Assembly (NCBI RefSeq): GCF_009914755.1
Contig: NC_060941.1
DNA length: 64,000 nucleotides
Origin: the human T2T-CHM13v2.0 reference genome, Homo sapiens
Direction: 5' to 3' (one strand)
Below are positions 17,915-22,240 of this stretch, one piece after another. The notes beneath the pieces were generated by a model. The model saw only the letters and a list, made by a program, of their open reading frames with translations, was not told where the DNA came from and ran no database searches. Position numbers and translations under genes: made by a program. Positions within the stretch are counted from its first letter, which is position 1, and the number at the start of each line of letters is the position of its first letter.

Positions 17915-18831
17915 TTTGTTTCTTTGTAAGTTTGTTTTTGAGATGGAGTCTTGCTGTGTTGTCCAGACTGGAGTTAAGTGGCACGATCTCGGCTCACTGC
18001 AACCTCCACCTTCTGGGTTCAAGCAATTCTGTCTCCTGCCTCAGACTCCCAAGTAGCAGGGACTATAGGTGTGTGCCACCATGCCTGGCTGAATTTTTTT
18101 TTTTTTTTTTTTGAGATGGAGTCTCACTCTGTCACCCAAGCTGGAGTGCAGTGGCTATGAGCTCGGCTCACTGCAACCTCCACTCCTGGGTTCAAGCAAT
18201 TCTCCTGCCTCAACCTCTGGAGTAGCTGGGATTACAGGCACATGCCACCACACCTGGCTAATTTTTGTATTTTTAGTAGAGATGGGGTTTCTCCACGTTG
18301 GCCAGGCTGGTCTCAAACTCCTGACCTCAGGTGATCCACCCACCTCGGCCTCCCAAAGTGCTGGGATTACAGGTGTGAGCCACCGCACCCGGCCTATATT
18401 TTGTATTTTCAGTAGAGACGGGGTTTCACTGTTTTGGCCAGGCTGGTCTCAAACTCAAACTCCTGACCTCAAGTGATCTATCTGCCTCGGCCTCCCAAAG
18501 TGCTGGGATTACAGGTGTGAGCCACCATGCCCGATCTGCTTGTTTTTTTGAGACTGGTTCTCACTCTGTTGCCCAGGCTGGAGTGCAGTGATGCAATCAC
18601 GTCTTACTGCAGCTTCCAACTCCCAGGCTCAAATGATCCTTCCGCCTCAGCCTCCCAAGTAGCTGGGATGACAGGCGTGCACCACCATGCCTGGCTAATT
18701 TTTATATTTTTTGTAGAGACCAGGTTTCACCATGTTGCCCAGGCTGGTCTCAAACTCCTGGACTCAAGCAATCTGCCCACCTCAGCCTCCCAGACTGCTG
18801 GGATTCTAGGCATGAGCCACCATGCCCAGCC
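17915..18831 (-). mobile_element. Nested antisense Alu cluster
   Basis: Alu consensus. Alu ~18096-18395 is nested in the linker of another Alu; AluJ-like 18545-18831. Confidence 0.88.
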
Positions 18832-18838
18832 TTCTTTT

Positions 18839-19122
18839 CTTTTCTTTCTTTCTTTTTTTTTTTTTTGAGACAGTCTTGCTCTATTACCCAGGCAGGAGTG
18901 CAGTGGCTCAATCTCAGCTCACTGCAACTTCTGCTTCCCAAGTTCAAGTGATTCTCCTGAATCACATCATGGCTAGCTAATTTTTGTATTTTTAGTAGAG
19001 ACAGAGTTTTGCCATCTCTACTGGAGTTGGCCAGGCTGGTCTCGAACTCCTGACCTCAGGTGATCCACCGGCTTTGGCCTCCCAAAGCGCTGGGATGACA
19101 GGCACGACCCCCACGCCCGGTC
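18839..19122 (-). mobile_element. Alu, left partner of the inversion (chimeric)
   Basis: Antisense Alu whose two flanks do not match each other but match the flanks of the Alu at 21135-21431. Confidence 0.85.
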
Positions 19123-19131
19123 TGGACTTTT

Positions 19132-19431
19132 GTTATTATTATTATTTTTTTTAGAGACAGGGTCTTGCTCAGTCACCCAGGCTGGAGTGCAGTGGCTCAA
19201 TCATAGCTCACTGCAGCCCCAAACTCCTGGGTTCAAGCAATTGTCCTGCCACAGCATCCCAAGTACCTGATACTACAGGTGCACACCACCACACCTGGAT
19301 AATTTTTTTTTTTTTTTGTAGAAAAAGGGGGTCTCCCTCTGTTGGTTACACAAACCCCTGGCTTCAAGTGATCCTCCTACCTCAACCTACCAAAGTGCAG
19401 GGATTACATGCATGAGCCACTGCACCCAGCC
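19132..19431 (-). mobile_element. AluJ-like element
   Basis: Alu consensus with diverged, J-type positions. Confidence 0.85.
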
Positions 19432-19521
19432 TTCTTATTTGAGGTGGCAAATTCCTTTACTCATAAGCCAATTTAGGATTGGGTCTTCTGCCTCTTGCAA
19501 CCAAAAGAGTCATAAACAATA
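19432..19521 (+). mobile_element. 3' end of an MLT1K/L-like LTR (flipped piece of the LTR at 21431-22240)
   Basis: TTCTGCCTCTTGCAACCAAAAGAGTCATAAACAATACA resembles the MLT1 3' terminus. Confidence 0.7.
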
Positions 19522-20420
19522 CACTCAGGAATTTGTGAGAGGAAGATAGGATTGACAACAAAGGTGGTTTGGAGAAGGGGTAGATGTATGGATCTTTTGG
19601 AATGAACTTAGAAGGTGTGGATTTGAGTTATATGGATGTTCACCCAAAGGCCTCCACTGTGGAATAGGCTATTAATATTCAGGTGGCCATGATGGCCTGC
19701 TCTGCAGATGTCCATCATCCTCCTTCCCCTGCCAGGCTAGTGCTTGCTTAATGGGATCATGAACCACATGGCCAAGGCAGCAGAGACAGAGGCTATGCAT
19801 ACGCTCAGTATCATTCACTTCCTACTACTGAGTCTGGTCTGGCTACTATTTCTGCCGGGGGCCCAACCAGCCCTGATGTTGGCTTCACACCCTGAAGGGA
19901 CCATTCAATTACCTGGTGATCATGACAATAACATTGGACCCTTTCCATAATAGATCAGGAGGAAGAGACATTTTATCTGGATTGGGCCATATTTACTTTC
20001 CAATGTGTCACTCTGCTGCCAGCACCACCATCCATTCACTTTCTTTTTTTTTTGAGACGGAGTCTTGCCCTGTCGCCCAGGCTGGCGTACAGTGGCATGA
20101 TCTCGGCTCAGTGCAACCTGCGCCTTCCAGGTTCAAGCGATTCTCCTCCCCCAGCCTCCCGAGTAGCTGGGATTACAGTCGCGTGCCACTACGCCCAGCT
20201 AAATTTTTGTATCTTTAGTAGAAATGGGGCCACCATGTTGACCAGCCTGGTCTCAAACTCCTGATCTCATGATCCGCCCACCTCGGCCTCCCAAAGTGCT
20301 GGGATTACAGACATGAGCCACCGCGCCCGGCCCCTCCTTTCACTTTGCAAGTCTTTTATGCTGTCATGGATTCCCAAAGAGACAACACTGCTCCAACCAA
20401 GAAACTCACCTCACAGTGAA
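19522..20420 (+). mobile_element. ERV-L pol relic (RNase H end and integrase), Alu 20040-20333 inserted
   Basis: Translates DVHPKASTVE*AINIQVAMMACSADVHHPPSPARLVLA*WDHEPHGQGSRDRGYAYAQYHSLPTTESGLATISAGGP...NIGPFP...CHGFPKRQHCSNQETHLTVK. Recalled HERV-L text is SAHQRVTSAEEDFNNQVDRM..IAQWAHEQSGHGGRDGGYAWAQQHGLPLTKADLATATAECP..YIGPLP..HGIPHSIASDQGTHFTAK. Confidence 0.85.
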
Positions 20421-21129
20421 ATTATGGAATTGCAAATCAAAATAATGAGATACCGCTACACATCTATTGTAATGGCTAAAATGCAAAACACTGACAACAC
20501 CAAATTCTGGTGAGGATATGGAACAAGAGGAACTCTCATTCATTGCTAGTGGGAATGCAGAATGGTACAGCAACTTCAAAAGATAGTTTGGCAGTTTCTT
20601 ACAAAGGTAAACATAGTCTTACCATACCATCCAGCAATCGCAATCCATGGTATTTATCCAAGTGAGTTGAAAACGTATGTCTACACAAAAATCTCCACCT
20701 GCACACAACTGTTTATAGCAGCTTTATTCATAATTGCCAGAATTTGAACCAACCAAGATGTGCTTCCATAGGTGAATGGATAAACAAACTGTGGTACATC
20801 CATATAATGGAATTTCTTTTTCAGATTTTTTTTCTTTTCTTTCCTTTTTTTTTTTGAGACAGGGTCTTGCTTTGTTGCCCAGACTGGAGTGCAGTGGCGT
20901 GATCACTGCTAACCTCAAACTCCTGGGCTCCAGTGATCCTCTGCCTCAATCTCCCAGGTAGCTGTGTACAGGAATGCACCATCATGCCCAGCTAATATAT
21001 TTTTTATTTTTTGTAGAGATGGCGTCTTGTCATTTTGCCCAGGCTAGTCTCGAAACTCCTGGGCTCAAGCGATCCTCCTACCTTGGTATACAAACATACA
21101 ATGGAACATTATTCAATGATAAAAAAGAA
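20421..21129 (+). mobile_element. L1M ORF2 3' region (flipped continuation of the L1 at 17030-17905), Alu 20825-21086 inserted
   Basis: AATGAGATACC.CTACAC...GGAACTCTCATTCATTGCT.GTGGGAATGCA.AATGGTACAGC...TGTTTATAGCAGCTTTATTCATAATTGCC...GGATAAACAAACTGTGGTACATCCATA. ORF 20562..20747 is L1 ORF2-like. Confidence 0.85.
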
Positions 21130-21134
21130 GGCTG

Positions 21135-21431
21135 GGCCAGGCACGGTGGCTCACGCCTGTAATACCAGCACTTTGGGAGCCCGAGGCGGGCGGATCACCT
21201 GAGGTCAGGAGTTTAGGACCAGCCTAGTGAAACCCTGTCTCTACAAAAAAATACAAAAATTAGCCAGACGGGGTGGCATGCACCTGTAATCCCAGCTACT
21301 AGGGAGGCTGAGGCAGGAAAATCGCTTGAACCCAGGAAGTGGCGGTTGCAATGAGTCAAGATCACGCCACTGCACTCCAGCCTGGGGAGACGGAGTAAAA
21401 CTCTGTCTCAAAAAAAAAAAAAAAAAAAAAA
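21135..21431 (+). mobile_element. Alu, right partner of the inversion (chimeric)
   Basis: Sense Alu lacking GGCCAACAT at ~21225, with flanks swapped with the Alu at 18839-19122. Confidence 0.85.
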
Positions 21432-22240
21432 GTCCAGAGATAGGTCTGCCTTTCAGATGTGTCTTGATTAGGGGTTTAAAAGAAATCAGGGAGGCCGAGG
21501 CGGGCGGATCACGAGGTCAGGAGATCAAGACCATCCTGGCTAACATAGTGAAACCCCATCTCTACTAAAAATACAAAAAAAAAAAAAAAAAAAAAAAAAA
21601 AAATTAGCCGGGCGTGGTGGCGGGTGCCTGTAATCCCAGCTACTCGGGAGGCTGAGGCAGGAGAATGGCGTGAACCCGGGAGGCAGATCTTGTAGTGAGC
21701 CGAGATCGCACCACTGCACTCCAGCCTGAGCAACAGAGTGAGACTCTGTCTCAAAAATAAATAAATAAATAAATAAATAAATAAATAAATAAATAAATAC
21801 AATAAAAGAAATCAGAATCTGGTGTCTCTCTTGAACCTGTTCTACTTTGTTCTATTGTCACTCTATTTTCAGACAGGCTCCAGGCTCTTTCCTTACAGTG
21901 GTAAAATATTTACAACAGCTCCAGACTTTACATCCATTATCATAATTCCAAGTGTAGAGGAAGTACATCTCACCCCTATTAGTCAAAGTCCCAGGCCTGA
22001 TTCTTACCAGTCCCTATTGAGTTATATGCTCTCCATGAAACCATACCTGTGACCTAGGGGAAGGGTTTCCTCCTTGGCTTATGCCAGTTAGAGTCCACCC
22101 AGGGTAGGGAGTCAACCTCATCCAACCACATGGACTGGTGTGGGTGAGCGCTGGTTCCTGCAGGAAAGTTAGGAATTACTCTTTTAATAGAGGTGTGCAT
22201 ATCTGCTGGGCAACATAAATAAAATTAATGACCCTTATAC
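21431..22240 (-). mobile_element. MLT1K/L-like LTR body with a 5'-truncated AluY (21490-21802) inserted
   Basis: AAGTCCAGAGATAGG...CAGCTCCAGACTTTACATCC...AAAGTCCCAGGCCTGATTCT...CTGCTGGGCA. AluY TSD TAAAAGAAATCAG at 21477-21489 and 21803-21815. Confidence 0.65.

What the first reader, a model, noticed from the sequence alone, without database searches (positions are those of the whole stretch)
18826..21438. ~2.2 kb inversion between inverted Alus, supported by swapped TSDs and three split host elements
Seen in sequence, four lines of evidence. (1) Neither the antisense Alu at 18839-19122 nor the sense Alu at 21135-21431 has matching flanks, but their flanks match crosswise. AAAAGAAGGCTGG is at the tail of the left Alu (rc 18826-18838) and the head of the right (21123-21135). 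AAAAGTCCAGA is at the head of the left (rc 19121-19131) and the tail of the right (21428-21438). (2) The L1M runs on + to ...TTATTCAATGATAAAAAAGAA (21129) and continues on - at ~17905 (AAAAATTGAGCTATCAATCC). (3) An MLT1 LTR has its terminal 90 bp on + at 19432-19521 and the rest on - from 21431. (4) ERV-L pol reads on - to ...SLAGW (~22245) and continues SG... on + from ~19523. Inference: recombination between the two Alus flipped the segment after both had inserted, i.e. in the primate lineage. It may be lineage-specific or polymorphic, and it lies ~8-10 kb upstream of KPNA2.
Basis: partly seen in the sequence, partly recalled or inferred. Interest (0 to 1): 0.82.

Follow-up and report, generated by a model that had tools for sequence, protein, structure and literature searches.

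The report
Small inversion between two inverted Alus
A 2.2 kb stretch of repeat-derived DNA about 8-10 kb upstream of KPNA2 was flipped end to end by a rearrangement between two oppositely oriented Alu elements, a real but ordinary kind of primate genome change with no sign of functional effect.

Summary
Neither Alu has matching flanks of its own. Of 1813 Alu pairs in the window, only this pair has flanks that match crosswise in both directions.

Two old repeats are split by the segment and join up again if about 19026-21224 is turned round.
- LINE-1 (L1M) ORF2 3' end: 25 of 25 informative copies elsewhere in the genome are collinear, and in 16 of 18 the two junction ends meet within 5-16 nt.
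- Retroviral pol (RNase H, integrase, dUTPase): the two halves lie on one diagonal in 22 of 29 other copies.

The third split element, an MLT1-like LTR, is only partly verified. Its 3' end is confirmed; its body has no detectable relatives.

This is an Alu-Alu mediated inversion, a kind already described (Lee et al. 2008). A new detail is that the two Alus carry a 10-nt insertion and a 9-nt deletion at the same Alu position. That points to breakage and end joining rather than clean crossing-over.

The age, lineage and polymorphism of the inversion could not be tested, because no primate or pangenome sequence was on hand. No annotated functional element lies inside the segment.

The parts
17250..17905 (-). 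L1M 3' part (end of ORF2 and 3' UTR), outside the inverted segment; interrupted by an Alu at 17451-17741
   Evidence: The pieces 17905-17742 and 17450-17250 hit other L1M copies directly downstream of, and on the same strand as, the plus-strand pieces.
17906..18832 (-). Nest of three older antisense Alus inserted at one A-rich site of the L1M. The head of the last one (18540-18832) supplies the GGCTGG of the first flank word.
   Evidence: Read from the sequence; Alu hits at 18112-18394 and 18559-18831.
18826..18838 (-). Target-site duplication of ancestral Alu 'A', copy at the tail of the left Alu
   Evidence: Exact 13-nt match to 21123-21135.
18839..19015 (-). Left Alu, tail-side portion (A-rich tail 18839-18866 plus right arm), inferred to derive from ancestral Alu A; carries a 33-nt deletion
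   Evidence: Alignment to 59 other Alus of the window.
19016..19025 (.). 10-nt filler at the left junction, inserted after Alu position 98
   Evidence: There is no other copy of it nearby (2 matches against 1.25 expected).
19026..21224 (.). The inverted segment (2199 bp)
   Evidence: Bounded by the indels at the same Alu position in both Alus. It contains every piece that is in the 'wrong' orientation.
19026..19122 (-). Left Alu, head portion, inferred to derive from ancestral Alu B
19121..19131 (-). Target-site duplication of ancestral Alu 'B', copy at the head of the left Alu
   Evidence: Exact 11-nt match to 21428-21438.
19136..19431 (-). Passenger Alu inside the inverted segment
   Evidence: 19154-19431.
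19432..19521 (+). 3' terminal ~90 nt of an MLT1-like LTR (the family name is recalled, not returned by a tool)
   Evidence: A 17-nt core occurs 16 times in the genome against 0 for the control. Homology in 15 of 15 other copies ends at query positions 80-94, which is window 19511-19525.
19522..20420 (+). Retroviral (ERV-L-like) pol: last third of RNase H and the start of integrase; interrupted by an Alu at 20041-20335
   Evidence: Domain names come from intact copies L046 and L043.
20400..21129 (+). L1M ORF2 C-terminal part; interrupted by an Alu at about 20829-21087
   Evidence: 20550-20747 matches human L1 ORF2p residues 1145-1206 of 1275.
21123..21135 (+). Target-site duplication of Alu A, copy at the head of the right Alu
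21135..21224 (+). Right Alu, head portion, inferred to derive from Alu A
21225..21427 (+). Right Alu, tail portion with a pure A tail, inferred to derive from Alu B. The junction at 21224|21225 lacks Alu positions 91-99.
21428..21438 (+). Target-site duplication of Alu B, copy at the tail of the right Alu
21432..22245 (-). Presumed body of the same LTR; interrupted by an Alu at 21483-21815 that has its own intact duplication
   Evidence: This is material inserted into pol relative to other copies. There is only weak direct support that it precedes the 3' end, and no blastn relatives.
22246..22520 (-). Retroviral pol: first two thirds of RNase H, ending ...SLAGW; outside the inverted segment

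Best explanation
About 2.2 kb (19026-21224) lies inverted relative to its ancestral orientation because of a rearrangement between two Alus that had inserted in opposite orientations.

Inferred ancestral order on the plus strand:
- L1M 3' part (minus strand)
- a nest of older Alus
- Alu A (minus strand), inserted at the head of the last older Alu, with duplication AAAAGAAGGCTG(G)
- L1M ORF2 part (minus strand)
- pol, integrase side (minus strand)
- the LTR 3' end (minus strand)
- a passenger Alu
- Alu B (plus strand), with duplication AAAAGTCCAGA
- the LTR body (minus strand)
- pol, RNase H side (minus strand)

Both Alus were broken at about Alu position 91-99 and the piece between the breaks was rejoined the other way round. 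This left two hybrid Alus whose duplications now match crosswise.

What is shown: the swapped duplications, and the split and coordinate contiguity of L1M and of pol.

What is inferred: that the 10-nt gain in the left Alu and the 9-nt loss in the right Alu are the junction scars. If they are, joining was by end joining or template switching between aligned Alus rather than by clean homologous crossing-over. The event is probably neutral.
For: Swapped duplications: both words are exact. This is the only reciprocal pair among 1813 Alu pairs. Neither Alu has a duplication of its own.

L1M: 29 other copies were fetched. In 25 of 29 both the plus piece and the minus piece hit, and in all 25 they hit on the same strand with the minus piece downstream. 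In 16 of the 18 loci that hit both junction pieces, the homologues of 21129 and 17905 overlap by 5-16 nt (median 6). The other 2 loci carry inserts of their own of 300-348 nt.

Pol: 29 other copies were fetched. The minus piece lies on the same strand, on the diagonal expected if 22246 joins 19522. This holds in 3 of 29 loci at E<=0.01 (offsets -6, -1, +6) and in 22 of 29 loci at E<=50 (44 hits on the diagonal within 30 nt against 433 off it). My own estimate is that about 1% would fall on the diagonal by chance. Intact copies encode RNase_H, rve and dUTPase in that order, and the split falls inside RNase H.

LTR: the 3' end stops exactly at the pol junction.

Junction scars: the left Alu has a 10-nt insertion after position 98 and the right Alu a 9-nt deletion of positions 91-99. 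14 of 59 other Alus have an indel of 6 nt or more, but none within positions 91-99.

Literature: Lee et al. 2008 (PMC2603318; abstract and sections 6, 7 and 19 read) define this class by just these criteria. They report 14 human-specific Alu events of mean size 1934 bp, and 12 of their 49 events come with deletions.
Against: The first flank word is partly Alu-head sequence, and near-copies of it occur by chance. The LTR body could not be tied to the LTR 3' end by homology; only a weak pooled signal exists. A test for hybrid Alus by divergence from a window-derived Alu majority sequence was uninformative: the log-likelihoods differ by less than 0.5 for both non-CpG and CpG sites. I noticed the coincidence of the two indels only after looking, and ordinary later indels cannot be excluded. 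No outgroup, second human assembly or read-level data could be consulted, so neither the direction of change in real history nor the correctness of the assembly was tested.
Confidence: 0.9

Rival explanations
1. L1 twin priming. The plus-strand L1M piece is the inverted 5' part made when the L1M itself inserted, and no later inversion occurred.
For: The topology of the two L1M pieces alone fits. Read on the minus strand, the inverted piece lies upstream of the 3' piece, and the break coordinates coincide. Twin priming accounts for about 85% of human inversions under 2 kb (bioRxiv 10.1101/2021.12.20.472354; abstract and passages read).
Against: Non-L1 sequence is co-inverted: 519+85 nt of retroviral pol and the LTR 3' end. 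About 2.5 kb separates the two L1M pieces, whereas twin priming joins them directly. Twin priming also does not explain the swapped Alu duplications.
Confidence: 0.02
2. The inversion arose by breaks unrelated to the Alus, or before them, and the Alus inserted at the breakpoints afterwards.
For: The junctions carry small indels, as end joining would leave.
Against: Alus that inserted afterwards would have their own matching duplications. These two have none and match each other crosswise. Both breakpoints also map inside full-length Alus, at the same Alu position.
Confidence: 0.03
3. The partner of the right Alu was another antisense Alu of the cluster (for instance 19136-19431), not the Alu at 18839-19122.
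For: The left breakpoint is bounded by host repeats only to 17905-19432, a stretch that is all Alu. AAGAAGGCTGG also sits at the head of the Alu at 19136-19431.
Against: The clean 11-nt word AAAAGTCCAGA at the head of the left Alu and the tail of the right Alu would go unexplained. The matching indels are in the Alu at 18839-19122, not in the others.
Confidence: 0.03
4. The split pieces are unrelated fragments that happen to abut, or the assembly is wrong here.
For: None from the calls. The assembly could not be checked.
Against: Two independent elements both resume within about 6-10 nt of where they stop, and the same single flip repairs both. The junctions lie in full-length Alus with exact crosswise flank words.
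Confidence: 0.02

Closest known systems
Alu recombination-mediated inversion (Alu-RMI, a class of RRMI; Lee, Han, Meyer, Kim and Batzer 2008, PMC2603318)
   Same: Two oppositely oriented Alus span the two breakpoints. Both lose their own target-site duplications, and the duplications match crosswise. The size of 2.2 kb is close to the mean of 1934 bp given for human-specific Alu events (section 6).
   Different: Here the ancestral state is inferred from split older repeats within one genome, not from a chimpanzee comparison. Both junctions carry small indels at the same Alu position, so a clean exchange is not shown. Whether this locus is among their 49 is unknown: Table S1 could not be opened, and the main text names neither chromosome 17 nor KPNA2.
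Alu-flanked balanced inversions in human population data (Porubsky et al., bioRxiv 10.1101/2021.12.20.472354)
   Same: Those authors report 9 Alu-flanked balanced inversions. Only 1 of the 9 Alu pairs is more than 90% identical, and they suggest a process other than classical homologous recombination (passages read). The pair here is 75.6% identical today.
   Different: Those inversions are polymorphic in living humans and smaller (median 685 bp). Polymorphism was not tested here.
L1 twin-priming inversion (Ostertag and Kazazian 2001; recalled, and cited within)
   Same: An L1 whose 5' part is inverted relative to its 3' part, with matching break coordinates.
   Different: Twin priming inverts only L1 sequence and joins the two parts directly. 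Here non-L1 sequence is inverted too, and the breakpoints lie in Alus.

Membership tests
Alu recombination-mediated inversion (RRMI) | Two Alus in opposite orientation span the two breakpoints | tested here: met
   The antisense Alu at 18839-19122 and the sense Alu at 21135-21431. Host repeats bound the right breakpoint to 21129-21438 and the left to 17905-19432.
Alu recombination-mediated inversion (RRMI) | Each Alu lacks its own target-site duplication, and the duplications match crosswise | tested here: met
   1 reciprocal pair among 1813.
Alu recombination-mediated inversion (RRMI) | The sequence between the Alus is inverted relative to the ancestral state | tested here: met
   Shown by internal evidence only: the L1M and retroviral pol pieces are contiguous in other copies. 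An outgroup comparison was not possible.
Alu recombination-mediated inversion (RRMI) | Both Alus are hybrids (front of one, back of the other), shown against the pre-recombination elements | tested here: inconclusive
   No un-inverted orthologue was on hand. The divergence-based test did not discriminate.
Alu recombination-mediated inversion (RRMI) | Exchange by homologous recombination without gain or loss | tested here: inconclusive
   There is a 10-nt gain and a 9-nt loss at the same Alu position. Lee et al. also include events with deletions (12 of 49), so this does not exclude membership.
L1 twin-priming inversion | Only L1 sequence is inverted, and it is joined directly to the 3' part within one pair of duplications | tested here: not met
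   Retroviral pol and LTR sequence are co-inverted, and the L1 pieces lie about 2.5 kb apart.
Inversion by recombination between long, highly identical inverted repeats (segmental duplications) | Flanking inverted repeats of kilobase length and more than 90% identity | tested here: not met
   The repeats are about 280 nt long and 75.6% identical, with a longest identical run of 22 nt.

The most novel reading that the evidence does not exclude
The two junction scars (a 10-nt filler in one Alu, an 8-9-nt loss in the other, both at Alu position 91-99) record that the two inverted Alus were paired as a hairpin or cruciform stem and cut across at one point. That would break both Alus at the same position, with the loop then rejoined the other way round by end joining. 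This locus would then be a naturally preserved footprint of secondary-structure-driven, non-homologous Alu-Alu inversion. Separately, the inversion could be human-specific or still polymorphic upstream of KPNA2.
Probability: 0.2. Interest if true: 0.45.

Novelty: new member of a known kind. Interest (0 to 1): 0.25.

Why it matters
The finding shows that a small balanced inversion can be recognised and oriented from a single genome, using swapped Alu duplications and split older repeats. It also adds one well-resolved case in which the junctions argue against clean homologous exchange between Alus. It has no evident functional weight: the segment is made wholly of decayed repeats, and the hub's annotation table lists no gene or regulatory element between 18.8 and 21.4 kb. 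It would gain some value as a phylogenetic or population marker if it proved lineage-specific or polymorphic.

Tried and rejected
- Pfam on 16 short translations of the window's own L1M and pol pieces found no relevant family; the single hit was a sub-threshold, unrelated one. Domain names had to come from intact copies elsewhere and from solved structures.
- The minus-strand L1M peptide found no L1 ORF2p among solved structures at E<=10.
- A DNA search of the genome with the LTR body found only itself. Searching with the LTR 3' end found one other copy, which did not extend upstream.
- blastn of the LTR body found nothing against about 195 kb of fetched loci plus the masked window, nor against 15 MLT1-like copies.
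- Testing for hybrid Alus by divergence was uninformative.
- A search for a nearby template of the 10-nt filler found nothing beyond chance.
- A search for more retroviral pol to the left of the L1M gave only Alu noise.
- Literature: a search for KPNA2 + inversion + Alu gave 2 irrelevant papers. Lee et al. 2008 does not name chromosome 17 or KPNA2 in its main text.
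Full report
**What is there.** The region 17.2-22.6 kb of the window is a mosaic of decayed repeats. 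One is antisense, with an A-rich tail at 18839-18866 and its body running to 19122. The other is sense, from 21135 to an A tail ending at 21427. The left Alu's own two flanks share nothing longer than 5 nt and the right Alu's nothing longer than 7 nt, all A-rich.

**Is the crosswise match more than chance?** I took the 61 near full-length Alus of the window. For each I compared the 25 nt before the head with the 70 nt after the body, and asked for a shared exact word of at least 10 nt with at least 5 non-A letters.
- Own flanks, that is ordinary target-site duplications, pass in 10 of 61 Alus.
- Ordered cross pairs of non-adjacent Alus pass in 17 of 3626. Seven of those 17 are plainly Alu-body words.
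- Pairs that pass in both directions: 1 of 1813, the pair in question.

From the one-way rate I would expect about 0.04 reciprocal pairs; this figure is my own arithmetic, not a call.

One caveat concerns the first word. Its last six letters are the head of the older Alu at 18540-18832. An 11-nt sub-word recurs at the head of the Alu at 19136-19431, and another recurs by chance beside the Alu at 54642-54917. Read with the model, this caveat becomes a point in its favour. Alu A inserted six bases into the head of the older Alu, so its duplication carries those six bases. That explains the otherwise odd extra GGCTG in front of the right Alu's intact head (sequence; inference).

**L1M.** The plus-strand piece 20550-20747 matches human LINE-1 ORF2 protein residues 1145-1206 of 1275. 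A six-frame search of the window's own genome gave 150 scored matches out of 102,223 candidates. I took the 29 best other copies with 1.5 kb of flank. I then ran four pieces of the window against them: 20400-20828 and 21088-21129 from the plus strand, and 17905-17742 and 17450-17250 from the minus strand.
- In 25 of 29 copies both the first plus piece and the first minus piece hit. In all 25 they are on one strand with the minus piece downstream. The other 4 copies lack a hit for the minus piece.
- In the 18 copies that hit both junction pieces, the homologues of 21129 and 17905 overlap by 5-16 nt in 16 (median 6). They are 300 and 348 nt apart in the other 2, which evidently carry inserts of their own at this A-rich spot.
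- Another L1 copy inside the window (62093-62281) shows the same collinear order.

The L1M therefore runs on the plus strand to 21129 and resumes on the minus strand at 17905.

**Retroviral pol.** Pfam saw nothing in the window's own short, frame-shifted translations. A 47-residue peptide from 19752-19895 found 116 matches in the genome at E<=0.001, and I took 29 other copies. I translated the minus piece (22520-22246) and the plus pieces (19522-20040 and 20336-20420) separately. I gave them running coordinates as if 22246 joined 19522, and ran them against those copies.
- At E<=0.01 the minus piece hits 3 of 29 copies, each time on the same strand as the plus piece and within 6 nt of the expected diagonal.
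- At E<=50 it does so, within 30 nt and mostly within 10, in 22 of 29 copies. That is 44 on-diagonal hits against 433 elsewhere, where about 1% would be expected on the diagonal by my estimate.
- The remaining 7 copies gave no on-diagonal hit.

Two copies with long open frames name the protein. L046 has RNase_H (residues 5-100) followed by rve. L043 has rve followed by dUTPase. More of the same pol lies on the minus strand at about 23647-23760. The flanking provirus is thus minus-oriented, and only the inner piece is plus-oriented.

**The LTR.** The pol result also shows that everything between 22245 (read downwards) and 19522 is inserted material relative to other copies. Its plus-strand end, 19432-19525, is the 3' end of an LTR family. 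A 17-nt core occurs 16 times in the genome against 0 for the reversed control. In all 15 other copies the similarity stops at query positions 80-94, that is at the pol junction. The name MLT1 rests on my recall of that terminal motif.

The presumed body (22250-21816 and 21482-21428 on the minus strand) has no detectable relatives. A local-alignment test of its last 55 nt against the stretch just upstream of the 3'-end homologue gave only a weak pooled signal. Three of 15 loci reached p<=0.05, the best score was 15 against a control maximum of 12, and Fisher's combined p was 0.006. Claim (3) is therefore plausible and fits the whole picture, but it is not independently shown.

**One event explains all.** The host repeats bound the right breakpoint to 21129-21438, which lies entirely within the right Alu. 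They bound the left breakpoint to 17905-19432, which is entirely Alu. Flipping the DNA between the two named Alus makes the L1M, the pol and the LTR insertion collinear on the minus strand, and gives each Alu a matched duplication.

- Twin priming fits the L1M topology alone. It cannot invert 600 nt of pol and an LTR end, nor leave 2.5 kb between the L1 parts.
- Alus that inserted after an unrelated inversion would have duplications of their own.
- A different partner Alu leaves the clean 11-nt word unexplained.

**How it happened.** I aligned both Alus to a majority sequence of the 59 other Alus. The left Alu has a 10-nt insertion after position 98 (window 19016-19025). The right Alu lacks positions 91-99 (junction at 21224|21225). 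Fourteen of the 59 other Alus have an indel of at least 6 nt, but none falls in positions 91-99; the nearest are at 84-90, 108 and 111.

Two such scars at one Alu position, in just the two Alus that exchanged arms, are most simply read as the junctions. It implies two breaks at matching positions of aligned Alus, rejoined with a small filler and a small loss.

The Alus are 75.6% identical today, with a longest shared run of 22 nt just upstream of the scars. This agrees with the remark in the population study that Alu-flanked inversions rarely have highly identical Alus and may form by another process. It also agrees with the proposal of Lee et al. that secondary structure or fragile sites are involved (abstract).

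I noticed the scars after looking, the hybrid test by divergence was uninformative, and no nearby template for the filler was found. I put this sub-claim at roughly 55-60%.

**Comparison with what is known, and verdict.** This is an Alu recombination-mediated inversion in the sense of Lee et al. 2008. Opposite Alus lie at both breakpoints, the duplications are swapped, and the size is typical. My text searches found no mention of an inversion near KPNA2.

The event postdates both Alus, so it is a primate event. Nothing here dates it more closely or shows polymorphism, because no primate or second human sequence could be consulted. The hub's table lists no gene or regulatory feature inside the segment.

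The kind of event is known and its significance is low.

Noticed in passing
window 17906-18832; also L016 and L023: Three older antisense Alus are stacked at one A-rich site near the end of L1M ORF2, one of them nested inside another. Alu A later landed at the same spot. Two of 18 other L1M copies carry a 300-348 nt insert at the homologous point, which suggests a recurrent Alu landing site in this L1 region.
   Followed up: partly
window 18994-19000 and 19016-19022: The first 7 nt of the 10-nt filler (CTCTACT on the plus strand) are the reverse complement of AGTAGAG, which lies 15 nt upstream in the same Alu. This is a small hairpin-like inverted repeat that could mean fold-back templated synthesis at the break, or could be chance. 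No longer template was found.
   Followed up: partly
window about 18962: The left Alu also lacks 33 nt of its right arm (Alu positions 150-182). This deletion is unrelated to the junction position.
   Followed up: no
window 21483-21815: A younger sense Alu sits inside the LTR body with an intact duplication of its own (AAAAGAAATCAG on both sides). Its tail has grown into an (AAAT)n microsatellite at about 21755-21800, and its middle A-rich linker is unusually long.
   Followed up: no
window 23647-23760, minus strand: A further piece of the same retroviral pol, upstream of the RNase H part, hit in 21 of 29 other copies. The provirus remnant therefore extends at least 1.2 kb further right, broken up by Alus.
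   Followed up: partly
window 413-599 and 62093-62281, minus strand: Two other LINE-1 3'-end fragments related to the split L1M.
   Followed up: no
L043 (G000 chr14) and L046 (G000 chr1): Copies of the same pol family elsewhere keep open frames of 392 and 309 residues with recognisable RNase H, integrase and dUTPase domains. I only observed this.
   Followed up: no
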